A stretch of 58,798 bases of DNA from a virus. Its lineage: Duplodnaviria; Caudoviricetes. The stretch spans positions 1 to 58,798 of the IMG/VR virus record IMGVR_UViG_3300006854_000006; one strand, 5' to 3'. The notes under the pieces are model-generated. The model was given only the letters and a program-made list of their open reading frames with translations. It had not been told where the DNA came from and ran no database searches. How positions within the stretch are numbered: the stretch's first letter is position 1; each line of letters starts with the position of its first letter. Below are positions 1,464-33,822 of the stretch, in pieces. A program made the position numbers and the translations under genes.

Positions 1464-1467
1464 ACCG

Positions 1468-1958: not shown

Positions 1959-1960
1959 CC

Positions 1961-2890: not shown

Positions 2891-2958
2891 GGCCTTACAG
2901 CCAGGCGGCCGACATCCGCGCCACGTGGACAGCCATATTCCATACGGAGAATGCAGAA

Positions 2959-4016: not shown

Positions 4017-4222
4017 GCCATACCTGCAAGCGCTTCAAGCAAACGGGCTCGATGAAAGTGTTCGCCGGCAACTACCGGGTTTCGGTTAACGGACTGGTGC
4101 GGGGCGGTTCGATAAAGGTCGATCAACTCGAAGTGCAATGTGTCGACTGCGGCGGCACGCAGATGGTGGATCGGCAGCAGCTCGAGAAGAAAGGCCGCTT
4201 TCTCGTGAGGAAAACACCATGA
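4013..4222 (+). CDS. small hypothetical protein
   Basis: GGAGG RBS, GTG start, CVDCGG motif, ATGA overlap with next gene. Confidence 0.6.
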   Translation: MSHTCKRFKQTGSMKVFAGNYRVSVNGLVRGGSIKVDQLEVQCVDCGGTQMVDRQQLEKKGRFLVRKTP

Positions 4223-5526: not shown

Positions 5527-5966
5527 AAGCCCTCTCGCTCACTCAGCCGTGGGCCACACTGATTATCATCGGCGCCAAATCCGTGGAAACGCGCAGCTGG
5601 ATGACGCAGTACAGCGGACCGATCGCGATTCACGCTTCGAAGAAATTCCCGGACGAAGACAAGGACCTCTGCATGGAGCCGCCGTTCCGACAAGCGTTGC
5701 GTGCCGGCGGGATTCTCGGGCCAGCCGATCTCCCGACCGGCGCCATTCTCGGAACCGCAGTCTTACGCGGCTGCCGCTTTACCGAAGATGTCGCGCACCA
5801 GCTCAGCGCCGAGGAACAGGCTTTCGGCAATTATGAACCCGGTCGGTTTGCCTGGTTCTTGCAAGACGCGCGCCGCATCGCGATTCCGATTCCCTGTCGG
5901 GGGAAGCTTGGACTCTGGACGGTTCCTCCGGAAATTGCGGAGCAGTTGAAGGCGGTGCTGGCATGA
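5523..5966 (+). CDS. ASCH domain protein
   Basis: KALSLTQPWATLI..GAKSVETRSW..GPIAIHA..RGKLGLW signature. Confidence 0.92.
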   Translation: MKALSLTQPWATLIIIGAKSVETRSWMTQYSGPIAIHASKKFPDEDKDLCMEPPFRQALRAGGILGPADLPTGAILGTAVLRGCRFTEDVAHQLSAEEQAFGNYEPGRFAWFLQDARRIAIPIPCRGKLGLWTVPPEIAEQLKAVLA

Positions 5967-6793
5967 GACTCATCCGTGTGTTCCCGCGAAAAACCAAAGC
6001 CACGCCGGATGATCATCTCGCCTATGTGGGCCCGCCGGATCTCTTCGCCGAAGCCGATGAAGTCCATATCTCCGTCGCCTTCACTTACGACAAGCCCGAA
6101 GCCGAGCGCCTGGCCGAGCAATGGAAACACGTCGCGCGGGTGAAAGTCGGAGGCGTCGCGTATGGAGATCCCGGCCTTGATTTCGAACCTGGCAAATACA
6201 TCAAACGCGGTTACGTCCTGACCTCGCGCGGCTGTCCGCGGCGCTGCTGGTTTTGCAGCGTGTGGAAACGCGACCCGGTGCCGCGGTTGCTCGACATCCA
6301 CGACGGGTGGAACATTCTCGACGATAACCTGCTGGCGTGTCCCGAGGCGCATGTTCGTGCTGTCTTTCAAATGCTCTCACGGCAGCGGCGGCGCGTGGAA
6401 TTCACTGGCGGCCTCGAGGCGCTCTCGCTTCAGCACTATCACGTCGAGCTGCTCGCGAATTTGAAGCCGCGTCCGAACATGTTCTTCGCCTACGATCCGG
6501 GCGATGCGTTCGAGACGCTGGCGCTCGCCGCGCGGCGACTCCTCGCCGCCGGATTTACGTCCCGGTCGCATCGGCTCCGCTGTTATGTCCTGATCGGCTA
6601 TCCGCATGACACCTTCGATAAGGCCGAGACGCGCCTGCGGGACATCCTAAGAATCGGATTCACGCCGATGGCGATGCTGTGGCAGCCGGAAACGCCGTCG
6701 GCGATGAAGTGGAAACCCGCAGTTGAGTGGAGGGCGTTTCAACGCCGCTGGGTACGCCCGGCCATCATTCACAGCCAGGAGGTTGTCGCGTGA
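5963..6793 (+). CDS. radical SAM-like protein
   Basis: TSRGCPRRCWFC (CxxxCxxC), DDN, YVLIGY. Confidence 0.85.
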   Translation: MRLIRVFPRKTKATPDDHLAYVGPPDLFAEADEVHISVAFTYDKPEAERLAEQWKHVARVKVGGVAYGDPGLDFEPGKYIKRGYVLTSRGCPRRCWFCSVWKRDPVPRLLDIHDGWNILDDNLLACPEAHVRAVFQMLSRQRRRVEFTGGLEALSLQHYHVELLANLKPRPNMFFAYDPGDAFETLALAARRLLAAGFTSRSHRLRCYVLIGYPHDTFDKAETRLRDILRIGFTPMAMLWQPETPSAMKWKPAVEWRAFQRRWVRPAIIHSQEVVA

Positions 6794-6929
6794 AATACGT
6801 TCTGCGCTTGTGGAAAGTCGAGGGCAAGAAGAAAACCCTAGTCCTCGAAACCGACTTCAATTCCGAAGAAGTGCACGAGATTGCCGAACAGGCCGGAAGC
6901 CTGATTGAGGAAGCGGTGGAGGTGAACGG

Positions 6930-8660
6930 ATGAAATCCCTTCACATCTCCAACACCTTCACGCTTCCCCTCGAGGCGGTCACGGAAACGTTCCTCGATCT
7001 CGGCCAGCGCGGCGCCGGCAAAACCAATACAGCCGCCGTCATTGCGGAGGAGCTCTTCGCTCACGGCGCACCGTTCGCCGTTCTCACGCCAATCGATGTC
7101 TGGTGGGGTCTGAAATCCTCCGCGGATGGCAAGGGCCCAGGCCTGCCGGTCTATATCTTCGGCGGACAACATGCCGATCTGCCGCTCGCACCGACGGCCG
7201 GGCGCTTGATGGCGGACGTCCTGATCGAGCAGCGCATCTCGTGTGTGATCTGCACGCAGGGCTTCAGCGGGAAAGAGCGCGCGGCCTTCACGACGGATTT
7301 TGCCGAACGACTCCTCGACAAGAATCGCGAGCCGCTCCACCTGATCGTGGAGGAAGCCGATGCCTTTATCCCGCAACGGCCTTTTCCCGGCGAAGAACGG
7401 ATGCTCGGCGCGATGGACCGGTTGATCCGCTGGGGCCGCTCGCCGAGCGCGATCGGCGGCACCTTCATCTCGCAGCGGTCTGCCAAGATCAACAAGGACA
7501 TCACCACCCAGTGCAGCGTGCTCGTGGCACACCGGACGATGGCGCCGCAGGACGTCGAAGCGATCAAAGAGTGGTTCAAGTATCACCCGGATACCGAGAA
7601 GCAGAAGCAGCTCCTCGCGGAGATCGCTTCCCTGCCGAAAGGCATGGTCTTCCTCTACTCGCCCGCCTGGCTGGAATATTTCGGAAAGTGCCAGATCCGC
7701 CGGCGGCACACCTTCGACTCGGCCGCCACTCCAAAGCTCGGCGCCCGCCTGATCGAACCGAAGACGGCGGTCGTCGACCTGAAGCTTCTCGAAGAGAAGA
7801 TGGCCGCCACGATCGAGAAGGTGAAGGCCGACGATCCGAAGGAGTTACGGAAGCAGATCCTTGCATTAAAGCAAGAGATCGTTGCATTAAAGCAAGCCGC
7901 GCCGGCCCCCGCGGCGAAACCGGAGCGCGTTGAAGTTCCGATCCTGACCGATGATGATCGCAAGCTGCTCAGGGCATCTCTCGCGGTCTTCGAACAAGCC
8001 CTCGGCGCAACTGAAGCCGTGCGCAGTCACGCCGTGAACCTGCAGGGACTGGTCGAATCGGTTACGGCGCGGGTCGACGGCCTGACGGCTCGTTCAGTGA
8101 AGCCCGTGAACCAGCCGGCGGCGAGACCGTTGACATCGCCGCCCGTGAAGGCAACGTCGCAATCGGCAACATCGAATGGCGACCTCTCTGGCCCTGAACA
8201 CCGCATTATTGACGCCATTGCGTGGATGGAAAGCATAGGGATCGATGCTCCGGAACAAACAGCAGTCGCTTTCCTGGCGGGCTACACCTATGGCGGAGGG
8301 GCATTTAATAACCCGCGAGGCTCCTTGCGCACAAAGGGTCTCGTGGAGTACTCCGGCGACAGGCTACGACTCACGGAAGCAGGACGCAGTCTTGCAACTG
8401 CGCCTGACACGCCGCTGACCACGGCAGAATTGCACCGAATGATCCTTGGCCGACTCCCGGGACCGGAACAGCGAATTCTGACCGTTCTCCTTCAGCGATA
8501 CCCGGACAGCATCTCGAACGAAGACTGCGCCCGGGAATCCGGATATGAGCCCTATGGCGGCGCTTATAACAATCCACGCGGACGGCTCCGGAAGCTGGGT
8601 TTAATTGATTACCCGGAACGCGGCACAGTTCGCGCTCGGGACATTCTATTTATCGATTAA
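6930..8660 (+). CDS. HerA/FtsK-like P-loop ATPase with tandem C-terminal winged-helix repeats
   Basis: Walker A GQRGAGKT, Walker B LIVEEAD, GRS and SQR motifs; duplicated C-terminal GG(A)xNNPRGxLR..GL. Confidence 0.85.
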   Translation: MKSLHISNTFTLPLEAVTETFLDLGQRGAGKTNTAAVIAEELFAHGAPFAVLTPIDVWWGLKSSADGKGPGLPVYIFGGQHADLPLAPTAGRLMADVLIEQRISCVICTQGFSGKERAAFTTDFAERLLDKNREPLHLIVEEADAFIPQRPFPGEERMLGAMDRLIRWGRSPSAIGGTFISQRSAKINKDITTQCSVLVAHRTMAPQDVEAIKEWFKYHPDTEKQKQLLAEIASLPKGMVFLYSPAWLEYFGKCQIRRRHTFDSAATPKLGARLIEPKTAVVDLKLLEEKMAATIEKVKADDPKELRKQILALKQEIVALKQAAPAPAAKPERVEVPILTDDDRKLLRASLAVFEQALGATEAVRSHAVNLQGLVESVTARVDGLTARSVKPVNQPAARPLTSPPVKATSQSATSNGDLSGPEHRIIDAIAWMESIGIDAPEQTAVAFLAGYTYGGGAFNNPRGSLRTKGLVEYSGDRLRLTEAGRSLATAPDTPLTTAELHRMILGRLPGPEQRILTVLLQRYPDSISNEDCARESGYEPYGGAYNNPRGRLRKLGLIDYPERGTVRARDILFID

Positions 8661-8699
8661 GACTGGAAGGTATTTACGCAACTAAGTCTGAGCAAGCCC

Positions 8700-9032
8700 A
8701 TGGCCGGTTCAACGACTGAAGGCTTCACGCCAATTTGCATCGATGGAATATTTCGCTTTCGTGGTCGTACAAGGCTGGCGGAACTGAAGCAATACAGCGA
8801 TAGACAGATACGCAGCAGTATCGTCCTGACGCGAAACGAAGTCAGGACCTGTCTTCTGCTCAGGCATCGCTACGCGCTGATCGTTGTCAACACAACGACC
8901 GGCGCGCAAACGGTAATTCCAGGAGAACGGCTCGCCGCGTTCCTCGAAGCCCAGCCGAGAACATTCGGACGGTCCATGCCTGCAACGTATCGACTGTTTT
9001 CCGCTAACGGCAAATTACGAATAGAAATATGA
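8700..9032 (+). CDS. hypothetical protein
   Basis: Only ORF filling the gap between the ATPase and the MTase. Confidence 0.5.
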   Translation: MAGSTTEGFTPICIDGIFRFRGRTRLAELKQYSDRQIRSSIVLTRNEVRTCLLLRHRYALIVVNTTTGAQTVIPGERLAAFLEAQPRTFGRSMPATYRLFSANGKLRIEI

Positions 9033-9048
9033 AGCAGAGGCGGCGCCA

Positions 9049-9800
9049 GTGAAGCCCTACTTCAGCCGGAACGGCATCACGATCTACCACGGAGACTGCC
9101 GGAAGGTTCTCCTCGAGATCCCCAGGTGTGACCTGGTGTATCAGGCCGACTCGATGATCACCGATCCGGTTTGGCCGAATGCCAGCGTTCCACTCGCCGG
9201 CGCCGACGCCCCCTTTACTCTCCTCGAGGAGGCGCTTCGCCTTGCCACCTTCAGGAGACTCGTCCTTCACCTCGGATGTGATACCGATCCGCGCTTCACA
9301 CTGGCCGTCCCTGAGCAGCTTCCATTTCTGCGCGTTTGTTGGCTGCGGTATGCGCGGCCGTCGTACAAAGGTCGGCTGCTGAATGGCTCTGAAGTCGCCT
9401 ACGTCTTCGGTGAAGCGCCGCCCGCGCACGAAACCAGCATGCTGATGTCCGGCGAGTCAACGAACACCGAAGCGACGCTGAATGGCGGCTGGCGCGTGAG
9501 TGATCGGACGGAAGGCGAAGTCTGTAACACCGACAATTGGAGGCGCACGGAAGGCCATCCTTGTCCACGCCGCATCCAGCATGTCGAGTGGCTGGTCCGC
9601 TGGTATGGGGGGGGGGGATGGTGATTGATCCTTTTGCTGGATCCGGAACGACGCTCGTTGCTGCGGCAAATCTCAACCGTCGCGCGATCGGCATCGAGAT
9701 CGAAGAGCGCTATTGCGAAATCGCCGCCAAACGACTGGATTCGCTTTCAGCTGACCGCCCAATGCAACCGTTTCCCGTCGGAATGAGGAATCAGAGTTGA
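9049..9800 (+). pseudogene. N4/N6 DNA methyltransferase split by a G11 tract (phase-variable or assembly error)
   Basis: N-part: IYHGDC, DPVW, HPCPR. C-part in another frame: [29 protein letters not shown]. Junction TAT-G11-ATG at 9607-9617. Confidence 0.85.
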
Positions 9801-10471
9801 CCAACTTTGACTGGGCCTATGTCGAGCATCAGCGTCGCGGGCAGAAGCCCACGGACGACTGGCAGACGCCCCCGCACATTTTGAAAGCACTCGGCCGCTT
9901 CGATTTGGATCCGTGCGCTTCTACTGAACAGCAGCACCGAACAGCCGACACCATGTGGACGGTTCTTGACGGTGGTTTCATGAAACCCTGGCGCGGGCGC
10001 GTCTGGCTCAATCCGCCATACGGTAGCAAGACGACTGAGTGGGTCCGCCGGCTCGGGGATCACGGTAACGGCATCGCACTCGTCTTTGCCCGCGTCGATA
10101 CAGCGCTTTTCCAGGATGAGATCTTCGTTCGCGCTACCGGTCTCTTGTTCCTTCGAAAGCGATTGTTCTTCATCCAGCGCGACGGATCCCGCGCGAAGAG
10201 CTCCGGCGGCGCTCCTTCGGTACTCGTCGCCTACGGCGAAGCGAACATGCACGCCCTTCGAATCAGCGGCCTCAAGGGCAGCCTGGTCGATTTACAGATC
10301 CCCGAAGTGATCACACGGTACGCGCGACCGCGAATAAACCACACTTTTGAAATAGGAGAACAGCAATGTCCCAACCCCAACGTTTACCCGGCATGGAAGA
10401 CTCGGCCGTGGAGGAACTCGAAGACGCGGCGCGCGAATACGCGACCATCCGCGATGAACGTCAGAAGCTGA
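9797..10471 (+). CDS. phage DNA N6-adenine methyltransferase (Dam-like family)
   Basis: [26 protein letters not shown] motifs. Confidence 0.9.
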
Positions 10472-10971
10472 CCCTACACGAATCGGAATTGAAAGCGAAG
10501 CTCCTGCGCCTGATGAAAGACGGTAAGCGCAGTCTCTACGAGCGCGACGGCGTCAAGATCGAACTCGTCGTGGAGGAGGAGACCGTCAAAGTTCGCGTGA
10601 AAAAAGAGCGCGAGGAGGGCGACCGGCCCGCATCCTCGAGCGTCACGACCGTTCGACCGGTGACTCCCGACGAGACGCCCGAACCCCTCTGCCGGCTCTG
10701 CCAGGCGCCCAATCCGGAATTCCAAACCACGGACGGCAAATTCTTTTACTGCGAAATCCATTCCTCGAACGTCCAGGAAGGCGAGAAGGTCAAGCGGATC
10801 CGCGATCGACAGAAAGCCGAAGCGATTGCGCAGACGATGAGAGAACCGGGCGACGAGAGCGAGAACGAGGCACCACGAGAAGATCCGTTGCTCTCGCCCT
10901 CCGCTCAGGCCGAGGAGTCCGCGTTCATCAACCAGCGGAATAAGGGACGGCGGAAGCGAGCGGCGAAATGA
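10366..10971 (+). CDS. hypothetical protein (coiled coil plus zinc finger)
   Basis: AGGAG RBS; CRLC...CEIH. Confidence 0.7.
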   Translation: MSQPQRLPGMEDSAVEELEDAAREYATIRDERQKLTLHESELKAKLLRLMKDGKRSLYERDGVKIELVVEEETVKVRVKKEREEGDRPASSSVTTVRPVTPDETPEPLCRLCQAPNPEFQTTDGKFFYCEIHSSNVQEGEKVKRIRDRQKAEAIAQTMREPGDESENEAPREDPLLSPSAQAEESAFINQRNKGRRKRAAK

Positions 10972-12438
10972 AATCGAAGCGCTCCAACCTGCCCGTGCTC
11001 GGCGAATTAGTAAGCGTTGTTTTTAGCGTCGCCCATGCGTGCCCGAAGACCAAGTCGGCGCCCGACGATTGCGGCGATTGGACGAAATTCAAACTGGTCG
11101 AAGACGATGCGGATCTCTACGTCTTTGAATGCACGCGCTGCCAGCAGGCGGTCTGTGTCGAGATGGAGACGCGCGTCCAACGAGCAGCGAAGAAGCGAGT
11201 GGCACGGTGAAAGCCGACATTTGTGAGTTCTGCGGGATGGTGGTGCCGGAGAGCGATGACAAAACACTTCTTTATGAACTGGTCATCGCGCCGGCCGAGA
11301 ACTTCGAAGCCCGTGAAAAGCGCGAGCGGTTGCTCACGCTCACGATCGAGCACATCTGCTTTGGATGTACCCAACGCGTGCGTGAACTTGTCGATCGCGT
11401 TCGGGAGATGGTGCGCCCGAAAGAGGTTAAGAAAAATCATTGGATGAGGTAAAGCGACATGGCCATGAAAGTCACGCTCTGGTGCGATCAGTGCCCGACG
11501 TTGTTGGATGTCGAAGCTTTCGAACTCGATCTCAAGAGCAGGCAGATCCTGCCGCGCCAGGATCACAACTACCAGACCCAGCGGCTTCAGCTGTGCGCGG
11601 AGTGCTTCGACAAGCTCATGGCGCAGGCGAAGCCGGTCAAGCAGAACGTCTCGGTGAAGGCGACGATTGAGACGCCGGCGAATGGAAAGCGGGCGGCGAA
11701 ATCATGAACGTGAAATGTAAGACTTGCGGCACGCGTTACGACGACGCCGATCGCTCCACGCTCTGCCCGCACCTGCTCATCATGTCCGCCGAAGACCGGG
11801 AACAGAAGAAAGTCGCCCTTTCCTTACTCGGCAAAGACGTCTACTTCGCCCATCGGCCGGAGGAAATCTACCGGGTTCAGGCCGTGAGCTATAACGGTAT
11901 GGTCTCCATCTCCGGAATGGTCGGTGAATTCGCGCCGCATCTTTTCAAAGTCAAGGAGTGAATCGATGTCTGTCCATGACCTCGTGAAAGAAGTTCAAGA
12001 GTACGAACGCCGTCGCGCCGAAGGTCGACGTTGTGGGATGACGAGCGTTCAGCCACGGCAAGCCGGACACCGGTGTCACGCCGGAACCGTCACGCATGTG
12101 TGTGAGCGGCCGGCGGATCATAAAGAGATGTGCCGGTGTTGGTGTACGTACGAGTGGTTGGGAAAATGAGGCTCGGACATCGGGGGATTCTGCGACAGGC
12201 GGGGATGTAGATGCGACCGATTCCGGATCTGTGCGAATGGAATCCAGTCCTGAAAGAGCCTGCACGACACCAACCTGTCGGGGTGCCCGTAAACGACGGC
12301 AGTTGTACAAATCTCGCGGAGTTGATCGTCGGTGCGAACGGCCATTGGCGACTCTGTCGACGATGTTGGGAGCTGGACCGGAAGGAATACTTTTGGAGAT
12401 ACCGCTCAATTCAGGAGATTCGAAAGGCGGGGATGTAG
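10968..12438 (+). CDS. run of six small Cys-rich hypothetical genes (10968-11210, 11207-11452, 11459-11707, 11704-11961, 11966-12169, 12211-12438)
   Basis: Mostly start/stop-overlapped or with an RBS; each has CxxC-type motifs. Confidence 0.65.
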
Positions 12439-13491
12439 ATGGGCGAGACTTCGATCGAGTGGACGAATCGGACCTGGAATCCTGTCACCGGCTGCACGAA
12501 GGTAAGTCCCGGCTGCAAGTTCTGCTATGCCGAACGGGTGTTCCCGCGGGCGTATTCCGGGATGTGTGAGTGTGGTGACAGAATTGAAGCGCATGACCAT
12601 AACGATCCCTTCAGGCCAGGCACGCCGACCGCCTGTCTGAATGAGGACTGTAAATGCGTACTGTACCGCCAGCGTGTCTTCACCGAAGTTCTTACGCATC
12701 CGGACCGCCTAGACCAACCCCTGCACTGGCGCAAGCCGCAGCGGATCTTCGTCAACTCAATGTCGGATCTCTTTCACGAAGATGTGTCGGATGAATTCAT
12801 CGACAAGGTGTTCGCCGTGATGGGCCTGGCTCCGCAACATACTTTCCAGATCCTCACCAAGCGGCCCGAGCGGATGCGGGAATACATGAACGGCGACTAT
12901 CTTGACCGGGCATGGAAGCAGGCTCCAGATCTCGCCGGTCCGGATGCGCCATTTATCGATTGGCGCGATCCGTTGTGGCATCGAATGTACGACAACGTCT
13001 GGCTGGGCGTGTCCGCCGAAAACCAGCAGTATGCCGACGAACGGATTCCGCTCCTCTTGCAGACACCGGCCGCGGTGCGGTTTGTGAGCTATGAACCGGC
13101 GCTGGGGCCAGTCCTATTCCGTCGCCATATTGATGTGACACGAAGCGGCGTCATTGAGGGCCAGATTCTCGTGGATCACATATCCCGACTCGACTGGATC
13201 ATTGTCGGCGGCGAAAGCGGGCCCGGCGCTCGGCCGATGCATCCCGACTGGGCGCGCACCGTTCGGGATCAGTGCGAAGAAGCTGGAGTGGCGTTTTTCT
13301 TCAAGCAATGGGGCGAATGGTTCCCGCGGGATCAGTGGGAAGGCAATCCAAATCTAATTTTGCCGGATGACGAAGACTGCGTTGAAGGTCCGCGGCTCAG
13401 ACTAATGGGACCGCTTGCTTTCCATCGCGTCGGCAAGAAAGCTTCCGGCGCATTGCTCGACGGCGAATTGTGCAGGGAATTTCCGAAGTGA
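12439..13491 (+). CDS. phage Gp37/Gp68 family protein (DUF5131)
   Basis: TSIEWT..TWNPVTGCTKVSPGCKFCYA, IFVNSMSDLFHE, QILTKRP, WIIVGGESG, FFFKQWG. Confidence 0.95.
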   Translation: MGETSIEWTNRTWNPVTGCTKVSPGCKFCYAERVFPRAYSGMCECGDRIEAHDHNDPFRPGTPTACLNEDCKCVLYRQRVFTEVLTHPDRLDQPLHWRKPQRIFVNSMSDLFHEDVSDEFIDKVFAVMGLAPQHTFQILTKRPERMREYMNGDYLDRAWKQAPDLAGPDAPFIDWRDPLWHRMYDNVWLGVSAENQQYADERIPLLLQTPAAVRFVSYEPALGPVLFRRHIDVTRSGVIEGQILVDHISRLDWIIVGGESGPGARPMHPDWARTVRDQCEEAGVAFFFKQWGEWFPRDQWEGNPNLILPDDEDCVEGPRLRLMGPLAFHRVGKKASGALLDGELCREFPK

Positions 13492-13709
13492 CTCTCGATC
13501 GCAACATCAAATGCGCATACTGCCGAACAGTGATTCCGATCGGGAGTGACTTCTACGCCTGTTCGTGGGGCACGTCGAGCAATGCAGAACTGCCGATGGT
13601 GAGCATCGCCGGCATTCACTGGGATTGCACATATAAGATTCTTGACGAGTGGATTCATCAGCGGATTTACAAAGGAAAGCGGAAGTCGGATCACGGGAGG
13701 AGGCAGTGA
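13488..13709 (+). CDS. small zinc-finger-like protein
   Basis: GTGA coupling; CAYC...HWDC. Confidence 0.6.
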   Translation: MTLDRNIKCAYCRTVIPIGSDFYACSWGTSSNAELPMVSIAGIHWDCTYKILDEWIHQRIYKGKRKSDHGRRQ

Positions 13710-13914
13710 AGCGTCAGAGCAGTAAACGTCGCGGCGGCCCACAGCACGGCGCCGCCATGAGCTTCGAGGAGATCGCTCGGGAGCTGGGGATCACGCGCGC
13801 GGCGGGGCCTGGATGGCGTACAAGAATGCCATGCGTAAGCTCGCGCGCCAGCCGAATCGTCGACAGCTTGAAATGATGCGCGAGCTCGCCCGATCGAAGG
13901 AAAGGTCCGGATGA
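13706..13914 (+). pseudogene. sigma70 region-4-like HTH protein, frameshifted near 13797
   Basis: MSFEEIARELGITR continues in another frame as GGAWMAYKNAMRKL...RSG, whose stop overlaps the next ATG. Confidence 0.6.
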
Positions 13915-14324
13915 AAGCGTTCTACTTCGGTTGTGTGCGCGAGCCTGGCCATCACTTCTTTGGACCGGATGGCGAATACCGCCACTTCAAAGAATTCGCA
14001 CAGAGTCCGTGGAGGGCTTATGAGCTCGATGCGCAGCTCGCGCCGCATTTTGAAGATTGCATCCGAAAGCGATCCCGCTTCTGCAAATACTGCGATTGCG
14101 CGAGCGGCCCGGAAGGCATCGCGCTCCTGCACCATAAAGCCGGCTGGACGGCGCTGTCGTTCTGGGACCGTTCGGTGGACAATCGTGGCGCCAGCAACAG
14201 CACGTTCATCCTGGAAGGCGACTACGACTTCAACCAGGCCCTCGCGTTGGCCCGCTCACTCTTTCCGTCGATCTTCGCGCGGTTCACCTTCGAGGTGCGG
14301 GAGTTTTCGGAGACTCGGTCGTGA
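13911..14324 (+). CDS. hypothetical protein
   Basis: FYFGC..PGH..GWTALSFWDRSVDNRGASNSTF; coupled both sides. Confidence 0.75.
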   Translation: MKAFYFGCVREPGHHFFGPDGEYRHFKEFAQSPWRAYELDAQLAPHFEDCIRKRSRFCKYCDCASGPEGIALLHHKAGWTALSFWDRSVDNRGASNSTFILEGDYDFNQALALARSLFPSIFARFTFEVREFSETRS

Positions 14325-14809
14325 GTAACCTCTCGGATCGGATCGCGAGGTTTCGAGCCGAGGACTACGGAGCGCATACGCCGGAATGTCACGATGACGC
14401 TATCGGCCTGCTCGACGATTACCAGAAGCAGATTCAGGATTTGCAGCAGCAGAAAGTGTTCGAAGCGCAATGGGCCGACAAACTGAAAGAGTTCGGCACG
14501 ATTGACCGGCTCATCGAAGCCTACAGTCAGTCGAAGATGGAAGCTCGCAAGTCTGCCGCCGAGAACCGGACGCTGACGCAGGATCTTGCCGCTTGTGTGA
14601 CGGCGCGCGACATGAACCATAGCCAATGGTTTGCCATTAAGGCGGAATGGGAAAACGGGAAAGAGGAGAGCCGGAAGCTGCGGGAGGCGCTGGATACGGC
14701 GAGGGCGGCATTGCATCACTGCGACATCCGACACAAGAAATGCACATGTTCAAGAGAAGCGATCGCCGAAATCGACGCCGCCCTGGCCGACAAAGGAGAA
14801 ACCGAATGA
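14321..14809 (+). CDS. hypothetical coiled-coil protein
   Basis: GGAG RBS, GTGA and ATGA overlaps. Confidence 0.7.
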   Translation: MSNLSDRIARFRAEDYGAHTPECHDDAIGLLDDYQKQIQDLQQQKVFEAQWADKLKEFGTIDRLIEAYSQSKMEARKSAAENRTLTQDLAACVTARDMNHSQWFAIKAEWENGKEESRKLREALDTARAALHHCDIRHKKCTCSREAIAEIDAALADKGETE

Positions 14810-15893
14810 AGTCGATCATCACCACTAAGCAACGCAGAGCGATGAAAGCAGTAGAAGATGAAAAATGTGGCGCTAAATACAATGGCGTTCTGATGATCAG
14901 GTGCATGCTGCCAAAGGGTCATCGGGGTCGTCATGCATCGGAACGCACGACTGTTCACGGTGGGCGCATATCTGCACTCTGGCCGAGGTAGCCGACAAAG
15001 TAGGATTGGATGGCGAGTAAATCGTGTAGTTGCACGGCTAAGGTTAACGACATTGTTTATGAAGTGGATATCTGCCACTGCCCCCTCCACAAAGCCGCAC
15101 CGGAGTTGTTGGAGGCGTGCAAGCGCGCATTGCCCATTGTGCAGAGCTACAACGCAACACTCTCCGGAGTCGAAGTATTGGAAGCCGCAATCGCGGCAGC
15201 CGAAGGCAAGCTCTGATGGGTTCCGCGATAGAATTGGGTTCTATGAAACTCAAATTCGACCCAGAGCAACGCGTTCGTGTCGAAAACGGCCAAAAGCAGA
15301 GCGCGAAATACAATGGCATGGAAGGAACGATCATGCCTATACGGCCAGCGACACTCAACATCGGCAATGAGTACATGGTTAAACTTGACGACGTCGATAC
15401 ACCGCTATCCTTTTCGGAGAGTGAGCTCGTAGCAATCTGAGTTGGCAAACGTGAACGGCAACTTCAACGGCGTCCAGCTTCACAAGATCACCTCGCTGAA
15501 AATCCAGAACCACACCCCCGGCTTTACCCATACCTCATTTCGGGTGATCGAAGAGAGTCGTCCCGACTTGGAGCACGTCCTCGAGCTCGGCACGCCGGCG
15601 CTGCTGATTCTTGCGGACAAGATCATTGAAGGCCGTATCGTCAGCTATAAGGCGGATCTGCATTTCGGTTATGAGATCACGATCGAGACAAAGAAATGAT
15701 GCTGCTCACCCTCGCCGACATCTTTCGTTGCACCCGTTGCGGTTTCTGGTATCCGCGCGACGAAGAAGGACCCTGGCAGAACTGCAAAAGCTGCTATTGG
15801 GGTGTGCCGCTCCAACGCGACGCCATCGTGACTCGGAAGATGGTCCTGATCATGATGGCCCGCGAACTGGAGGAGTTGCTGTCCGTGGCCTAA
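14806..15893 (+). CDS. run of five small hypothetical genes (14806-14991, 15010-15216, 15243-15440, 15442-15699, 15696-15893)
   Basis: Tight packing; 15010 ORF has the common phage AAPELLEAC motif; 15243 ORF looks SH3/KOW-like (RVRV..YNGMEGTI..YMVKLD). Confidence 0.6.
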
Positions 15894-15963
15894 TGGCGTT
15901 CGAATAGATTTGCGCGCCCTTCAACCTGCGACCGCGCCGCAAAATAATTATCTGACAAAACAC

Positions 15964-15992
15964 TTGACACTTGGGAAGAGTCGAGCTACACT
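15964..15992 (+). promoter_or_regulatory. sigma70-type promoter upstream of DUF932 gene
   Basis: TTGACA-17 nt-TACACT with AT-rich upstream element. Confidence 0.8.
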
Positions 15993-16071
15993 GTCTCTCG
16001 AAATGACAGGCGAGCCCCGCAGATGGTCGAAACATCCACGAGGCTCTAACTTCCAAAGGAGTATAGGTCCC

Positions 16072-16911
16072 ATGAAAGCTACGATCGATTCTAACCCACG
16101 TCCCGTCCGCCGAAATCAACCGTTGACCCTCGAGGAGATCCACCGCGCCGCGCCCTCGGCCTTTGCCGCGGAGCCCTACGGTGCGATGTCGTCGCGCTAC
16201 AGCTACATTCCGACGTCCACGATCATCGAGGGCATGCGCCAGGCCGGCTTTGCGCCCTTCGCGGCTTCACAGTCGGCCACGAAGATCGATGGGAAACGCG
16301 GTCACACGAAGCACATGATCCGCTTCCGTTCCCAGTCCTCGGCGGTCGCGCTCGGCGACACCTTCCCGGAGATCGTGCTGATCAACGCACACGACGGCTC
16401 GAGCGCCTATAAGCTGATGGCCGGCCTCTTCCGGCTCGTCTGCGCGAACGGTCTCGTGGTCGCGGATTCGATGATGGAGTCGATCCACGTCAAGCACACC
16501 GGCAACGTTCTCGAGCAGGTCGCGACGGGTTCCATGGAGCTCGTCGCGCGGATGCCCGAGGTGATCGATGCCGTAGCCCGCTGGAAGGCCATCCAGTTGT
16601 CCTCGGCCGAGCAGACGGCTTTCGCCGAAGCCGCACACGTCCTGCGCTTCGCGGATGCGGAGGGTTCCGTCACGACGCCCATCACGCCCGGCCAGCTGCT
16701 GACACCCCGACGGGTTGACGATTCCCGCTCGGACCTTTGGTCCACCTTTAACCGCGTCCAGGAAAATGTGCTCCGTGGCGGCCTGCGGAACTATCGGCGC
16801 AGCAATGTGCGCCGCGTGACCACACGTGCGGTGACGGGTATCGATCAGGACGTTCGGTTAAACCGGGCCCTGTGGACGCTGACCTCACGGATGGCGGACT
16901 TGAAGCGATAG
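16072..16911 (+). CDS. DUF932/DUF945 family protein
   Basis: AAGGAG RBS; SSRYSYIPT, HTKHMIRFR, INAHDGSSAY, GLFRLVCANG, DLWSTFNRVQEN, LNRALW. Confidence 0.92.
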   Translation: MKATIDSNPRPVRRNQPLTLEEIHRAAPSAFAAEPYGAMSSRYSYIPTSTIIEGMRQAGFAPFAASQSATKIDGKRGHTKHMIRFRSQSSAVALGDTFPEIVLINAHDGSSAYKLMAGLFRLVCANGLVVADSMMESIHVKHTGNVLEQVATGSMELVARMPEVIDAVARWKAIQLSSAEQTAFAEAAHVLRFADAEGSVTTPITPGQLLTPRRVDDSRSDLWSTFNRVQENVLRGGLRNYRRSNVRRVTTRAVTGIDQDVRLNRALWTLTSRMADLKR

Positions 16912-17060
16912 CTGGAAAGCGGGCGCCGGAAGCGGATCCGGCGCCTTCTCGAGGTTCCCGGAATTGGAATCGAACAAAAGGAGGAACAAAACAATGAAGA
17001 CCCGGAGGAAGAAAACGAAAGGCGTCCGGTTCGTCCTGGGGCCGGCGTGCGGGAGATGAG

Positions 17061-17261
17061 ATGACACCACAGGCGAAGCGCTGCCCCAATCACGGCAATC
17101 GTCGGGCGACCATGCGCGGGGTCTGCACGACCTGCTACAACGCCGTCGCACAGCGGGTGTCCCGCGGAGAACTAAGCTGGGCGGAGGCGGAAGCGCAAGG
17201 CCTCGTGCTTCCTCAGCAACCGCGCGGCCGTCCGCGAAAGACCTTCAAGACAGTAAAATAA
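17061..17261 (+). CDS. small zinc-finger/AT-hook-like DNA-binding protein
   Basis: RGVCTTCY and C-terminal PRGRPRK; GGAG RBS. Confidence 0.65.
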   Translation: MTPQAKRCPNHGNRRATMRGVCTTCYNAVAQRVSRGELSWAEAEAQGLVLPQQPRGRPRKTFKTVK

Positions 17262-17264
17262 TGT

Positions 17265-17293
17265 TTGACAAATACACTGACAGCGGCTATATT
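17265..17293 (+). promoter_or_regulatory. sigma70-type promoter for the tRNA
   Basis: TTGACA-17 nt-TATATT, 15 nt before the acceptor stem. Confidence 0.85.
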
Positions 17294-17308
17294 AGACGCA
17301 CGGTGGAC

Positions 17309-17404
17309 GGAGGGATGGCCGAGTGGACGAAGGCAACCGGCTCACAACCGGTACTCGGTGCTAGAACCACCGAGCGCGGGTTCGAATCCCGCTCCCTCCG
17401 CCCA
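17309..17404 (+). tRNA. class II tRNA with serine-type body and CAC (Val) anticodon
   Basis: Acceptor GGAGGGA/TCCCTCC, D arm GCC/GGC with GG, anticodon arm ACCGG-CTCACAA-CCGGT, 7-bp variable stem CTCGGTG/CACCGAG, T arm GCGGG-TTCGAAT-CCCGC, then GCCCA. Confidence 0.92.
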
Positions 17405-17549
17405 CCGGACCGAAGGGCACTGGCTCACAACCAGGGTCAGTATAACACCGTTTCGGTTTGCATCGGTCCCGGGGACTTCAATCGAATCGGGGGGGCTTTG
17501 AATGAAAAGCTGACGGCGGAGATGTTCGACAAGACGTGAGGCGCGCGAA

Positions 17550-17816
17550 TTATTTTTTGAAGTAGATGAGTAAGACACCGGCCGCCTGCACGATCAGCGT
17601 CGCCAGAAGGCCGATGACCATTTTCCAGCGGTCGTTTTTCGAGCGCTCCGTCGCCTGCTGCATGCTCACCAGCAGGTCGAACTGCTTGTTCGTGGAGGTT
17701 GTGACGTTCGCCATCTCGGCTTTCAGGGTGGCGATATCCCCGATGGTGGTTTTGATGTCCGGCGCCATCTCGCGAATCGTCTGCAGGGCCTGCAGCAGCG
17801 CTTGATCATCGCTCAC
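17550..17816 (-). CDS. coiled-coil protein with C-terminal TM helix (holin/XhlA-like)
   Basis: Hydrophobic WKMVIGLLATLIVQAAGVLLIYF then KK; last gene of the late operon. Confidence 0.65.
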   Translation of the reverse strand: MSDDQALLQALQTIREMAPDIKTTIGDIATLKAEMANVTTSTNKQFDLLVSMQQATERSKNDRWKMVIGLLATLIVQAAGVLLIYFKK

Positions 17817-18292
17817 AGTCCGCGCCGTTCCCGTTTCAGATCCGCGATGTATTGCTCGATTTGATCGATCCGCTCGTCAATACGCCGGTTTTTCAAAATG
17901 GCTTCTTTTTGTTTTTGAACCGCACTGCTTCGGATCGCGACCGCATCCCGAATGGCTAGCAGGAGTCGCTCGCGGATATCGCCTTTGTCGAGATAATCGT
18001 CGGCTTTGTTTTTCATCGCCGCGACCGCGGTTCGTGGATCGGAAAATCCGGTCAAGAGGATGAAACCGCCCTGATAGTCCTGCTCCCGCAACTGGCGGAC
18101 GCATTCGCTTCCTTGCATGCCGGCGAGTTTTTGATCCATCACAATGCAATCAATCGCTTCAGTATCGGCCAAGCGGAGGGCGTCTTCGCAGGTTTCCGCG
18201 TCGATGATGGTCAGATCGGGATCCTGGCGGACGAGGATTTCACGCACCAGGCGCGCGTCGTTCAGATCGTCGTCGACGAGGAGGATGATCAC
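17813..18292 (-). CDS. response-regulator receiver (CheY-like) domain protein
   Basis: ILLVDDD, IVMD (phosphoacceptor), LLTG, ADDYLDK; GTG start overlaps upstream TGA. Confidence 0.92.
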   Translation of the reverse strand: MIILLVDDDLNDARLVREILVRQDPDLTIIDAETCEDALRLADTEAIDCIVMDQKLAGMQGSECVRQLREQDYQGGFILLTGFSDPRTAVAAMKNKADDYLDKGDIRERLLLAIRDAVAIRSSAVQKQKEAILKNRRIDERIDQIEQYIADLKRERRGL

Positions 18293-18465
18293 GCGGAAGG
18301 AGGGGGAGACTGGAAGTCCGGATCGCCAGTATAGGCGGCGTTGATGGAATTCCGGATTTTCAACATAACTTTCTTCAGCGCGGCCCGTTTGTCGGGATTC
18401 TTGATCGTCGCCAGAATGGCCGCCGTTCCCATCGTGATCCAAAAGTCATAATCCATCCCGTTCAT
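18289..18465 (-). CDS. small putative membrane-associated protein
   Basis: AAAGGA RBS; FWITMGTAAILATI then basic amphipathic helix. Confidence 0.6.
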   Translation of the reverse strand: MNGMDYDFWITMGTAAILATIKNPDKRAALKKVMLKIRNSINAAYTGDPDFQSPPPSA

Positions 18466-28316: not shown

Positions 28317-28688
28317 TCAGGCTTCGGGTGGTTCGACAATGGGCACGCCTTCCATAAATTCCCGCTCCGTCGATTCGAGATGCGTGACTTCGATCATGTT
28401 CGTCAGATCACAGGTGATGGTCAGCATCGTCCGTTTCCGATCGTGGACAGCGCTCGCGATGTACCAGAGAGCTCCGTCCCAGATAATGCGATGCGACAGC
28501 GCATTGATTTCGGTACCATCGCCTGTCTTGCGGTAGCGGATGATGAACTGCGCCGCCGTCTCGCTGAGACGTTCGGCTTCGGCCGAAATCGGTCCGCCGA
28601 AATCGGCTGTCCAGCTTTCCGGCGTCACGCCGGCCGCGGGAATGCGCTTCTCGAAAGTCACGTAGTCGGACAATCGACCGGCTCTCAC
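28317..28688 (-). CDS. head-closure / head-tail adaptor (SPP1 gp16-like)
   Basis: MRAGRLSDYVTFE, FIIRYR, HRIIWDG..WYI, LTITC. Confidence 0.85.
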   Translation of the reverse strand: MRAGRLSDYVTFEKRIPAAGVTPESWTADFGGPISAEAERLSETAAQFIIRYRKTGDGTEINALSHRIIWDGALWYIASAVHDRKRTMLTITCDLTNMIEVTHLESTEREFMEGVPIVEPPEA

Positions 28689-29365
28689 CGAAACCCAGAT
28701 GGGACCGCATCCCTCAAGACCGGCCGGTATTGCAGATTGTTATCGAACCGTTTCACGCTCGTGTTCTGGTCATGGATCCGAGCCCACATCATCGCGCCGG
28801 CTGGAACGCTGATCAGTTCGCCGGCTTGCCGCGCGTCCTTCACGAATTCGTTGTCCTCGCCGACGTTCGGATGCTCCGGGCCGGATCGGAAATAGTGATC
28901 TTTCCAGAACGACCGGCGATAACAGAGTGAGGTGCCCAGGGCATAACTGGAATCGCCGACATACTGGATCCATTGTCCGGACGGTTCGATTTTGAAGAGC
29001 ATCGAGTGATAGCCCGTCACCGCTTTACCGGAGACTTCGAGGCGCTCGACCTGGTCGGCCATACGTTCCGGCGAAGACCAGTCGTCACTATCGAAGTGCA
29101 TGATGATGTCGCCGCTACTCAATTCGATCGCCCTGTTGCGCTTGCATGGGATCGGCTTCGAAGATTCCCAGAAATATCGGACATTGGAATACCGCCGCGG
29201 CTCCGGGAAAGAGCGCTCCTCATCGTCATCCAGGATGATCAGTTCCTTCTCCGGATACGTCTGCGCGAGGAAGCATTCGAGCGCCTGGTGCGCCCACGCC
29301 TGCCGCCCGCGCGTCGGCATAATCGCGGACACGAGAATCACGCCGCGATCGGCCTCAGCGACCAA
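28685..29365 (-). CDS. glycosyltransferase family 2
   Basis: VSAIMPT, QTYPEKELIILDD, KRNRAI, HFDSDD (DxD). Confidence 0.92.
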   Translation of the reverse strand: MVAEADRGVILVSAIMPTRGRQAWAHQALECFLAQTYPEKELIILDDDEERSFPEPRRYSNVRYFWESSKPIPCKRNRAIELSSGDIIMHFDSDDWSSPERMADQVERLEVSGKAVTGYHSMLFKIEPSGQWIQYVGDSSYALGTSLCYRRSFWKDHYFRSGPEHPNVGEDNEFVKDARQAGELISVPAGAMMWARIHDQNTSVKRFDNNLQYRPVLRDAVPSGFR

Positions 29366-29979
29366 TCGACGGCAATGCCGAGCTGGTCACATAAACGCTT
29401 GGCATCCGGGTTCCAGTATCCCCGATCGATGCCGCTCACCAGATACTCCAACGGCCAGGGCTGGGCCTCGCGCTTGAAAGAGAGCACCGGCACCGGCAGC
29501 GTGTCGCTGAAGGGCGTCCCGCGATTCTCGAAGTCGCCGGCTTCGCCCGTCGTTGTGTTCAGGCAGTAGCGGGCGATCTCGGCCAGATAGTCCGGTTGCC
29601 AGATGGCGACCTGACAGGAGATACGAGCGGCGGTCCCGCGCGGGATTCGACCGAAGTGAGGATCGCCGAAATCTTCAACGGCTCCCGGGCACGGATAGAG
29701 CCGCACACATCCGGCGCCTCGGGATTCGAGCAGCTCCCAGCCGCGCGCCACGAGATCGGATTGCACGGGCGCGGTCAAAAAGAAATCCTCCTGAAACACC
29801 ATAAGCGGCTCGTCGCTCTCGAGAGCCGAACGCAGGAGCACCCCGCACCACGGCTCACCGGCCCGGTCACTGTGAAACGTGATCGGATACGGGCAGTCAG
29901 GCCAGAAATGCTTCACGAGCGCAAGGAACGGATCCCAGGCATCCCGGTAGGCCGCGCAGGTGATGACGGCTACGCGCAC
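29338..29979 (-). CDS. putative GT-A fold glycosyltransferase
   Basis: YRDAWDPF..FWPDCPY, FQEDFFL, SCQVAIW; cluster context. Confidence 0.65.
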   Translation of the reverse strand: MRVAVITCAAYRDAWDPFLALVKHFWPDCPYPITFHSDRAGEPWCGVLLRSALESDEPLMVFQEDFFLTAPVQSDLVARGWELLESRGAGCVRLYPCPGAVEDFGDPHFGRIPRGTAARISCQVAIWQPDYLAEIARYCLNTTTGEAGDFENRGTPFSDTLPVPVLSFKREAQPWPLEYLVSGIDRGYWNPDAKRLCDQLGIAVDWSLRPIAA

Positions 29980-33642: not shown

Positions 33643-33706
33643 GTCACAGTTTCATGTCAAGCAAATAAAGTTATAAGTCCAGATAAATCCATAGCAACAG
33701 CATCGG

Positions 33707-33736: not shown

Positions 33737-33822
33737 CTCACTGGTTTAGCTGGCTAAGCTTCATTGCCGCTCTTAAGTCACGCCATCGCCGACCCTGATA
33801 AACCAGGGTGTATAACTTGCTC

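What the first reader, a model, noticed from the sequence alone, without database searches (positions are those of the whole stretch)
17265..17404. Independently promoted tRNA with serine identity elements and a valine (CAC) anticodon
Seen: a perfect class II cloverleaf with G1:C72, G2:C71, A3:U70, C11:G24, G73, two extra D-loop bases after GG, and a 7-bp variable stem stacked directly on C48. The anticodon at 17343-17345 is CAC, and a near-consensus promoter (TTGACA-17-TATATT) sits just upstream. Established: these are the bacterial tRNA-Ser determinants; SerRS ignores the anticodon; tRNA-Val is class I with A73. Inference: the RNA would be serylated and insert Ser at GUG, making it a phage-encoded mistranslating tRNA, or it is a decoy/regulator. 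An alternative fold (C17308:G17400) gives an 8-bp acceptor stem, C discriminator and encoded CCA. The loop CTCACAA is one base from the Met-type CTCATAA and three from Ser loops such as CTTGAAA, so a single sequencing error does not explain it.
Basis: partly seen in the sequence, partly recalled or inferred. Interest (0 to 1): 0.92.

Follow-up and report, generated by a model that had tools for sequence, protein, structure and literature searches.

The report
Serine-type phage tRNA reading valine codon
A soil phage carries an intact, strongly promoted tRNA gene built like a serine tRNA but with the anticodon for the valine codon GUG, so it may put serine where valine belongs, although the phage's own genes still use GUG for valine.

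Summary
Window 17309-17400 (+) is a perfect class II tRNA with anticodon CAC (17343-17345). It lies 15 nt behind the only 11-of-12 sigma-70-type promoter match in this complete 58.8-kb temperate phage genome.

The body is serine-type, not valine-type:
- A covariance model built from it retrieved tRNA-Ser as its 17 best hits in five bacterial genomes.
- Its last 23 nt recur in seven other full viral tRNAs, all with serine anticodons.

The anticodon is not an error. It is identical in a related phage that differs by about 6% in the surrounding 1.5-kb block, and in contigs of four sequencing runs. A second lineage on bacterial metagenome contigs keeps the same loop CUCACAA despite 11 compensatory stem changes.

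The phage has not recoded GUG. Its 24 tested GTG codons sit in valine or hydrophobic columns. GTG is 39% of its valine codons.

Best reading (about 0.4): a seryl-tRNA synthetase substrate that decodes GUG, that is, a Val-to-Ser missense tRNA. It works like the allo-tRNAs of Acidobacteria but has canonical 7/5 shape. Charging and decoding are inferred, not shown.

Rivals: a decoy or regulator, valine or dual charging, or a relic.

This scan has noted serine-type tRNAs with other non-serine anticodons on other mobile DNA, but not this one.

The parts
17265..17293 (+). Sigma-70-type promoter match, TTGACA-17-TATATT. The -10 box ends 15 nt before tRNA position 1.
   Evidence: Scores 11 of 12. It is the only site at 11 of 12 or better in the whole genome on both strands; shuffles gave a mean of 0.14. 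Identical in relative L010 apart from one spacer base at 17283.
17309..17400 (+). Class II tRNA gene, positions 1-73. It has a serine-type body, discriminator G73 and no CCA encoded in register.
   Evidence: tRNA call and fold; the 17 best model hits are all tRNA-Ser; 85.
17343..17345 (+). Anticodon CAC, which reads GUG, in the loop CUCACAA.
   Evidence: Unchanged in L010 and in contigs of runs X1-X4. The same loop occurs in the second lineage, L178-L180.
17301..17308 (+). 5' leader that is complementary to the 3' trailer (17400-17408). It would extend the acceptor helix in the primary transcript.
   Evidence: Read from the sequence; part of it appears in the fold. Not conserved in the L179 lineage, so its significance is open.
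17407..17434 (+). Partial direct duplicate of tRNA positions 18-42 (D loop through the anticodon stem-loop). It forms the hairpin CUGG-CUCACAA-CCAG at 17420-17434.
   Evidence: The exact 11-mer occurs twice, 83 nt apart. Local alignment is 24 of 28 identical, score 40 against 21 +/- 4 in shuffles; 0 of 1000 shuffles and 1 of 484 other genome windows reached it. These are the only two CUCACAA-loop hairpins in the genome.

Best explanation
The gene makes a real, expressed tRNA that descends from an ordinary bacterial-type tRNA-Ser. Its anticodon has changed at positions 35 and 36, from CGA-like to CAC.

Inferred mechanism:
1. The gene is transcribed from its own strong promoter.
2. The transcript is trimmed by RNase P and a 3' nuclease, and CCA is added, as for host tRNA-Ser genes that lack an encoded CCA.
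3. The host seryl-tRNA synthetase charges it with serine, because that enzyme reads the long variable arm, G73 and the first acceptor pairs and does not read the anticodon.
4. On the ribosome it competes with Val-tRNA(CAC/UAC) at GUG and inserts Ser for Val in a fraction of cases.

The phage reads its own GTG codons as valine. The tRNA is therefore not a recoding device. It would be a dose-dependent missense (mistranslating) tRNA: an RNA-only way to perturb or poison translation in the infected or lysogenic cell. This is the effect shown for serine-identity allo-tRNAs in E. coli.

Shown here: the gene, the fold, the serine-type body, the conserved CAC, the promoter match, and standard use of GTG by the phage.
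Inferred: transcription, processing, serylation, decoding and the biological purpose.
For: Structure and isotype:
- A perfect cloverleaf in which all 27 pairs are Watson-Crick.
- Model R1, built from this tRNA, gave 19 hits at E <= 0.01 in five bacterial genomes. The best 17 are all tRNA-Ser (GCU, CGA, UGA, GGA), and no tRNA-Leu, -Tyr or -Val appeared.
- With the variable and anticodon arms removed, the three tRNA-Ser of genome G002 rank first of 32 tRNAs, with 40-43 of 52 bases identical against 32-35 for the three tRNA-Val.
- The last 23 nt are found exactly in 11 other viral contigs. All 7 that hold a full tRNA there are tRNA-Ser with serine anticodons, and the nearest matches 74 of 92 bases.

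Conservation:
- A 133-nt run (17284-17416) is identical in a relative whose surrounding 1564-nt block has 79 mismatches and 7 gaps. By my arithmetic this is about 5e-4 under a uniform rate.
- A second lineage (L178-L180) keeps the loop CUCACAA, the D arm and the T arm, while 11 of 27 pairs changed on both sides.

Expression signal: the best promoter match of the genome lies directly upstream.

Literature:
- Serine-identity allo-tRNAs with Leu anticodons inserted Ser at Leu codons and arrested E. coli growth (PMC5389517, section 15).

Processing: of 17 tRNA-Ser genes in the compared genomes, 16 lack an encoded CCA, as this gene does.
Against: - No charging, processing or expression data exist.
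- The phage does not avoid GTG: 286 of 738 Val codons, 23.5 per 1000 codons, in 40 ORFs. Its GTG codons sit at conserved valine positions of TerL and DUF932: 24 codons, serine share 0.01-0.02. Serine insertion would therefore harm the phage itself.
- A35 and C36 are the major valine determinants (PMC9976931), so ValRS might bind, charge or edit this tRNA.
- The leader-trailer helix might hinder maturation.
- The type is rare: two lineages in 2.9 million viral contigs and 241 million metagenome records, and 0 of 401 sampled genomes of the candidate host phylum.
- The chromosomal lineage has a damaged acceptor stem, a G2xA71 mismatch plus a bulge. This suggests such genes are not stably tolerated.
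- Host assignment is weak. It rests on a 42-nt attP match to tRNA-Arg(CCT) of three Acidobacteria gp5 MAGs and on one TerL relative that its source names as Vicinamibacterales.
Confidence: 0.4

Rival explanations
1. A non-decoding tRNA-like RNA. The transcript (tRNA plus the downstream copy of its anticodon stem-loop) acts as a decoy, sponge or regulator for a factor that recognises the CUCACAA stem-loop. Candidates are an anticodon nuclease of a host defence, ValRS, or a modification enzyme. It would rarely or never deliver an amino acid.
For: - A second hairpin with the identical loop and a compensatory stem change lies 83 nt downstream. It falls inside the block that is conserved in the relative.
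- Leader and trailer can extend the acceptor helix.
- In PMC5389517 (section 16 read), most allo-tRNA(UAU) variants tested were inactive in translation, and the authors proposed non-translational roles.
- The chromosomal lineage keeps the loop while its acceptor end is impaired.
Against: - The anticodon stem-loop is not a copy of the candidate host's tRNA-Val(CAC). The host has CCUGC-UUCACAC-GCAGG and the phage ACCGG-CUCACAA-CCGGU.
- With the 11-mer masked, the downstream region shows no significant similarity. The hairpin may therefore be a duplication scar.
- A decoy has no need for a complete, perfect serine identity set.
- I know of no tRNA-Val-directed nuclease (recall, not searched).
Confidence: 0.2
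2. A valine-accepting or dual (Ser and Val) tRNA. ValRS uses A35 and C36 and charges it despite the serine body, so it mostly supplies ordinary GUG decoding, with little or no mistranslation.
For: - A35 and C36 are strong valine determinants, and ValRS efficiently mischarges tRNAs that share them. Viral valine-accepting tRNA-like structures tolerate a non-A discriminator and large insertions (PMC9976931, passages).
- GTG is a frequent phage codon.
- Dual charging is known for Candida tRNA-Ser(CAG) (PMC11415595, passages).
Against: - It lacks A73 (G), G20 (A) and G45 (C), and it lacks a valine-type acceptor and anticodon stem. All of these were needed for effective valine acceptance in transplantation experiments (PMC9976931; bases read).
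- The body is clearly serine-type.
- The phage has no excess demand for GUG. GTG is 39% of Val codons in the phage against 37% in loci of the candidate host MAGs.
Confidence: 0.15
3. A non-adaptive relic: a captured tRNA-Ser gene whose anticodon drifted, carried along without a role or at a tolerable cost.
For: - It is restricted to this phage and one close relative among the 80 loci that hold the neighbouring DUF932 gene. It lies at a mosaic boundary.
- The type is very rare.
- The chromosomal lineage is decaying at its acceptor end.
Against: - Two specific anticodon changes have occurred with no other defect: all 27 pairs are intact.
- It is identical over 133 nt in a relative that is about 6% diverged around it.
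- The same loop is retained across 11 compensatory stem changes in a second lineage.
- The best promoter match of the genome lies directly upstream.
Confidence: 0.2

Closest known systems
Allo-tRNAs of Acidobacteria and other bacteria (Mukai et al., Nucleic Acids Res 2017, PMC5389517; abstract and sections 13-16 read)
   Same: - Long variable arm and G73, that is, serine identity, combined with anticodons for non-serine sense codons. A Val anticodon was reported once.
- Found in soil metagenomes, Acidobacteria and mobile contexts.
- Tested members inserted Ser at Leu codons and were toxic in E. coli.
   Different: - Allo-tRNAs are defined by an 8/4 or 9/3 acceptor/T branch and a tRNA-Sec-like D arm with a long stem and tetraloop.
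- This tRNA is canonical 7/5 with an ordinary tRNA-Ser D arm. It lies on a temperate phage behind its own promoter, and no toxin-antitoxin gene was found among the 37 ORFs I scanned.
Ordinary bacterial and phage tRNA-Ser, for example the tRNA-Ser(UGA) on viral contig L187
   Same: The acceptor stem GGAGGGA, the D stem, the T arm and the discriminator are the same. 74 of 92 bases are identical, and the architecture is the same, with one unpaired base on each side of the variable stem.
   Different: The anticodon is CAC instead of NGA or GCU, two changes from CGA. The variable stem is 7 bp with a 7-nt loop.
Candida tRNA-Ser(CAG) and Streptomyces tRNA-ProX (review PMC11415595, passages read)
   Same: They are natural tRNAs whose body identity and anticodon disagree, arising by anticodon change in a tRNA whose synthetase tolerates it. 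They give ambiguous or mistranslated sense codons.
   Different: - Those are chromosomal genes of cellular organisms. In Candida the codon was reassigned, and tRNA-ProX comes with a dedicated ProRSx.
- Here the carrier is a phage, no synthetase gene was found, and GTG is not reassigned.
Host-type tRNA-Val(CAC), for example in genome G002
   Same: The anticodon CAC, together with U33 and A37.
   Different: Host tRNA-Val is class I (73 nt) with A73, loop UUCACAC, and different acceptor, D and anticodon stems. Body identity to the phage tRNA is 32-35 of 52 bases, against 40-43 for tRNA-Ser.

Membership tests
Bacterial tRNA-Ser (canonical class II, 7/5) | Long variable arm with a stem, and one unpaired base on each side of it | tested here: met
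   A 7-bp stem with a 7-nt loop. The layout is the same as in 16 tRNA-Ser genes of the compared genomes.
Bacterial tRNA-Ser (canonical class II, 7/5) | Discriminator G73 with G1:C72 and G2:C71 (identity set as given in PMC9976931) | tested here: met
   Read. A3:U70 and G30:C40 are also present.
Bacterial tRNA-Ser (canonical class II, 7/5) | Serine-type D arm and overall sequence and structure likeness to tRNA-Ser | tested here: met
   The best 17 of 19 R1 hits are tRNA-Ser. tRNA-Ser ranks top 3 of 32 tRNAs when the variable and anticodon arms are left out. All 7 full tRNAs sharing the last 23 nt are tRNA-Ser.
Bacterial tRNA-Ser (canonical class II, 7/5) | Serine anticodon (NGA or GCU) | tested here: not met
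   The anticodon is CAC, confirmed in a relative and in contigs of four runs.
Bacterial tRNA-Ser (canonical class II, 7/5) | Charged with serine by SerRS | not testable with these tools
   This needs an aminoacylation assay.
tRNA-Val | Anticodon NAC (A35, C36) | tested here: met
   CAC.
tRNA-Val | Class I shape, A73, minor elements G20 and G45, and a valine-type body | tested here: not met
   It is class II with G73, A20 and C45. The three tRNA-Val of G002 are 73-74 nt with A73 and differ throughout.
Allo-tRNA (PMC5389517) | 8/4 or 9/3 acceptor/T branch | tested here: not met
   It is 7/5. The only alternative is 8/5, using C at -1.
Allo-tRNA (PMC5389517) | tRNA-Sec-like D arm (long stem, tetraloop) | tested here: not met
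   The D stem is 3-4 bp and the D loop 9-11 nt, as in tRNA-Ser.
Allo-tRNA (PMC5389517) | Long variable arm and G73/U73 together with a non-serine anticodon | tested here: met
Bacterial tRNA-Sec | 8/5 branch, 6-bp D stem and UCA anticodon | tested here: not met
   An 8th acceptor pair is possible only with C at -1, which 12 of 17 ordinary tRNA-Ser genes also have. The D arm and the anticodon do not fit.
Phage 'long-armed' tRNAs that keep the identity of their anticodon (earlier notes of this scan, unchecked) | The body, apart from the extra arm, resembles the isotype named by the anticodon | tested here: not met
   Without the extra arm the body is still serine-type, not valine-type.

The most novel reading that the evidence does not exclude
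A temperate phage carries, behind its strongest promoter and a motif shared with one other early promoter, an RNA-only effector. It is a fully canonical seryl-tRNA that reads GUG and makes about 2.4% of all codons in the cell ambiguous (Val or Ser). The phage would use this as a regulated switch or weapon: host shut-off, exclusion of other phages, or stress-type proteome diversification of the lysogen. The downstream copy of the anticodon stem-loop would belong to its control. This would be the first natural phage-encoded sense-codon mistranslator with a canonical tRNA shape.
Probability: 0.3. Interest if true: 0.85.

Novelty: new variant of a known kind. Interest (0 to 1): 0.62.

Why it matters
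Natural tRNAs whose charging identity and anticodon disagree are the raw material of genetic-code change and of programmed mistranslation. Known bacterial cases are the oddly shaped allo-tRNAs and the Streptomyces tRNA-ProX with its own synthetase.

This is a textbook-shaped tRNA-Ser with a valine anticodon. It is carried by a complete temperate phage and kept intact in two phages, and a second lineage keeps the same anticodon loop. If it is charged with serine and decodes GUG, phages can manipulate translational fidelity with a 92-nt gene alone.

The claim is directly testable with standard reporters. The result also matters for annotation: pipelines call this gene tRNA-Val.

Tried and rejected
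**Recoding of GUG to serine in the phage: rejected.**
- In TerL, 17 GTG codons align to columns with Val 0.53 and Ser 0.02 among 119 homologues. GTC codons give Val 0.57.
- In DUF932, 7 GTG codons give Val 0.35, Ile/Leu/Met 0.40 and Ser 0.01 among 79 homologues.
- Only these two genes were tested. A single catalytic serine written as GTG elsewhere is not excluded.

**Codon supply: not supported.** GTG is 39% of Val codons in 40 phage ORFs, against 37% in 42 ORFs from loci of the candidate host MAGs. Both gene sets come from my own crude ORF picking.

**A valine tRNA with an added arm: rejected**.

**A copy of a host tRNA:**
- No full-length match was found in five genomes by BLAST.
- No close match was found in 50,697 phage records. 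The only hit was Acidovorax phage ACP17 (listed as two records) at 71.6% identity, unannotated.

**A phage-encoded synthetase or tRNA enzyme: none found.**
- I scanned 37 of my 96 candidate ORFs: 10 against PHROGs only and the rest against Pfam.
- The other 59 ORFs, including the block 28685-36649, were not scanned.

**A long-range helix around the downstream hairpin: dropped.** The relative L010 changes one strand without compensation.

**Terminator after the tRNA:** none was found by the scan.

**Relatives with a tRNA at this position:**
- Among 80 loci holding the DUF932 neighbour, only L018 (the same contig as L010) has this tRNA.
- L075 has tRNA-Arg(UCU) and L097 a class I tRNA-Ile(UAU).

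**First pattern scan of viral contigs:** it gave 16 stretches, of which 15 were chance matches with no tRNA at the site.

**Finding capsid relatives from a single protein:** only one locus was found, and it was not used.

**Taxon of the L179 contig:** the Atlas search suggested Pseudomonadota only weakly, so it remains unresolved.

**Expression:** no RNA holder was listed for the stretch.

**Supplements:** supplementary files of PMC5389517, which list the allo-tRNA sequences including the single Val-anticodon one, could not be seen. I cannot exclude that a relative of this tRNA is listed there.

**Literature:** four searches found no report of a natural phage tRNA with a serine body and a valine anticodon. 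The 2024 review PMC11415595 gave no occurrence of the term 'phage' in my term search of its main text.

Full report
**What the window is.** The window is a complete virus record of 58,798 bp with direct terminal repeats.
- My ORF map and family scans show a temperate tailed phage.
- A plus-strand block (1-17261) holds a DNA methyltransferase, an ASCH domain, DUF5131 and DUF932.
- A minus-strand late block (17550-43634) holds a tail fibre, portal, a fused protease-capsid and TerL.
- The phage also encodes an integrase (49186-50376), RecT, a YqaJ-like protein and RusA.
- The tRNA lies in the convergent gap between the two blocks. It is the only tRNA in the genome.

**The observation.**
- ARAGORN calls a 'tRNA-Val (cac)' at 17308-17404.
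- Rfam RF00005 matches 17309-17400 at 60.6 bits.
- The minimum-energy fold is the cloverleaf with a 7-bp variable stem.
- The promoter TTGACA-17-TATATT (17265-17293) scores 11 of 12. It is the only site at that level on either strand of the genome, and only one other site reaches 10 of 12, in front of DUF932.

**Is the body serine-type?** I tested this in three ways.
1. *Covariance model.* I built model R1 from the tRNA and searched five bacterial genomes that carry the phage's attP-type tRNA-Arg. It gave 19 hits at E <= 0.01. The best 17 are all tRNA-Ser of all four anticodon families (16 at 61-71 bits, one at 40.8). The last two are tRNA-Ala at 37-39 bits. No tRNA-Leu, -Tyr or -Val appeared. 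The alignment shows the same architecture as those tRNA-Ser genes.
2. *Body without the arms.* The long arm itself could drive that result. Earlier notes of this scan also describe phage tRNAs that keep their cognate identity but carry an extra arm. I therefore compared only positions 1-26 and 48-73 with 32 tRNAs of genome G002. The three tRNA-Ser rank first (40-43 of 52 identical), and the three tRNA-Val score 32-35.
3. *Shared 3' end.* The last 23 nt occur exactly in 11 other viral contigs. Seven hold a full tRNA there, and all seven are tRNA-Ser with serine anticodons (GCU three times, UGA twice, GGA twice). Four hold no full tRNA and are probably attachment-site fragments. The nearest is a tRNA-Ser(UGA) on L187, which shares 74 of 92 bases including the acceptor and D stems.

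The candidate host's own tRNA-Val(CAC) is class I with A73 and loop UUCACAC, and is unrelated in its stems. The gene is therefore an ordinary tRNA-Ser body in which positions 35 and 36 differ from a CGA anticodon.

**Is CAC real and conserved?**
- The relative L010/L018/L177 (one 58,503-bp contig) is mosaic. The block 15946-17507 is 94.2% identical (79 mismatches, 7 gaps in 1564 nt), while other parts are 71-85% identical or unalignable.
- Within that block, 17284-17416 is identical over 133 nt. By my arithmetic this has a probability of about 5e-4 under a uniform rate.
- Contigs of four sequencing runs show no other letter there. Two of those runs may be the source of the window, so at most two are independent.
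- A structure-aware pattern (serine-type D loop, U33-CAC-A37, class II spacing, T loop) found only L010 in 2.9 million viral contigs. In 241 million metagenome records it found four stretches: the L010 contig again and three contigs, L178-L180.
- Those three contigs are 94-99.5% identical to each other over the stretches they share, have 61-66% G+C, and carry bacterial housekeeping-type genes.
- Their 88-nt RNA has the same D arm, T arm and loop CUCACAA, but a different anticodon stem, variable arm and two acceptor pairs. Eleven of 27 pairs changed on both sides, and 98% of cells remain paired. That alignment was fitted to the model, which favours pairing.
- Its acceptor end is impaired: G2xA71 plus a bulged A, and Rfam matches only model positions 4-67 at 41.6 bits.
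- It has a promoter-like site, which I read by eye from the sequence, and a strong terminator-like hairpin.
- The pattern was found in 0 of 401 sampled genomes of the candidate host phylum.

**How the phage reads GUG.**
- GTG is 39% of valine codons (286 of 738; 23.5 per 1000 codons) in 40 ORFs. Use is the same in the early and late blocks. It is similar in loci of the candidate host MAGs (37%).
- In TerL, the 17 GTG codons align to valine-rich columns of 119 homologues (Val 0.53, Ser 0.02), just like GTC codons. Serine codons align to serine-rich columns.
- In DUF932, 7 GTG codons give Val 0.35, Ile/Leu/Met 0.40 and Ser 0.01 among 79 homologues.
- The phage therefore has not reassigned GUG, does not avoid it, and shows no special demand for it.

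**Processing.**
- CCA is not encoded after G73. The same holds for 16 of 17 tRNA-Ser genes of the compared genomes, so addition of CCA after trimming is the local norm.
- Leader and trailer are complementary over about eight positions with one mismatch. This is not seen in the L179 lineage.

**Downstream copy.**
- Positions 17407-17434 are a partial duplicate of tRNA positions 18-42: 24 of 28 identical, score 40 against 21 +/- 4, with 0 of 1000 shuffles and 1 of 484 genome windows as high.
- Its hairpin CUGG-CUCACAA-CCAG keeps the loop and carries one compensatory stem change.
- Beyond the 11-mer the similarity is not significant on its own. It may be a duplication scar or a functional stem-loop. 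The relative keeps it unchanged.

**Host.**
- The attP region carries 42 nt of tRNA-Arg(CCT).
- The 40-nt core is exact in ten genome contigs of several phyla. The full 42 nt is exact only in three Acidobacteria gp5 MAGs with 55-57% G+C.
- One TerL relative at 56% identity is named by its source as Vicinamibacterales.
- This makes an acidobacterial host plausible, not proven.

**Interpretation.**
[quoted passage not shown] Serine-identity allo-tRNAs with Leu anticodons inserted Ser at Leu codons in E. coli and stopped growth (PMC5389517, sections 13-16 read).
- On that basis the most likely mechanism is a seryl-tRNA that decodes GUG, that is, a Val-to-Ser missense tRNA. I put this at about 0.4. 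Charging and decoding are untested, ValRS may interfere through A35 and C36, and the phage would mistranslate itself.
- The rivals are a non-decoding decoy or regulator (0.2), valine or dual charging (0.15) and a relic (0.2).

**Classification.**
- It is not a member of the allo-tRNA family, because it has a 7/5 branch and a normal D arm.
- It is not a tRNA-Sec or a tRNA-Val.
- It fails the tRNA-Ser definition only at the anticodon.
- I found no paper describing such a phage tRNA.
- Earlier notes of this scan report serine-type tRNAs with Arg, Ile, Ala or Trp anticodons on other mobile DNA. The phenomenon may therefore be broader than this case.

Noticed in passing
window 17407-17434: A partial direct duplicate of the tRNA, from the D loop to the anticodon stem-loop. 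It forms a second hairpin with the identical loop CUCACAA and one compensatory stem change, and the relative phage keeps it unchanged.
   Followed up: partly
window 17301-17308 and 17400-17408: The leader and trailer of the tRNA are complementary (about 8 positions, one mismatch). The primary transcript could therefore carry a much longer acceptor helix. This is not seen in the L179 lineage.
   Followed up: partly
window 15940-15970 and 17253-17283: The DUF932 promoter and the tRNA promoter are the only two sites in the genome scoring 10 of 12 or better for a sigma-70-type promoter. They share a motif of about 30 nt (AAAATAAT..TGACAAA.ACAC.TGACA), which suggests a common regulator.
   Followed up: partly
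window 50407-50448: The attP region carries 42 nt identical to the 5' part (position 1 to the anticodon loop) of tRNA-Arg(CCT) in three Acidobacteria gp5 MAGs. The 40-nt core is also exact in MAGs of other phyla.
   Followed up: partly
L179:3791-3878 (also L178, L180): A bacterial-contig copy of a serine-type CAC tRNA. It has a G2xA71 mismatch and a bulged A in the acceptor stem, its own promoter-like site and a strong terminator hairpin. The DNA next to it has lower third-position G+C and encodes unknown proteins.
   Followed up: partly
L184, L185, L188, L191: Four viral contigs hold the exact 23-nt 3' end of this tRNA-Ser family with no full tRNA called there. They are probably attachment-site fragments of phages that integrate into tRNA-Ser genes.
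   Followed up: no
window 17813-18442 (-): A stand-alone response-regulator receiver domain (Pfam PF00072, 67.7 bits) at the end of the late operon, beside an 88-aa protein whose C-terminal segment I read by eye as hydrophobic (no membrane prediction was run).
   Followed up: no
window 4138-6793 and 12439-13491 (+): A DNA methyltransferase, an ASCH-domain protein and a weak radical-SAM-like ORF lie in a row. A DUF5131 (Gp37/Gp68-type) protein lies further on. Together they may form a DNA or RNA modification module.
   Followed up: no
L097:152-227 (-): A distant relative that carries the DUF932 gene holds a class I tRNA-Ile with the rare anticodon UAU, A73 and an encoded CCA.
   Followed up: no
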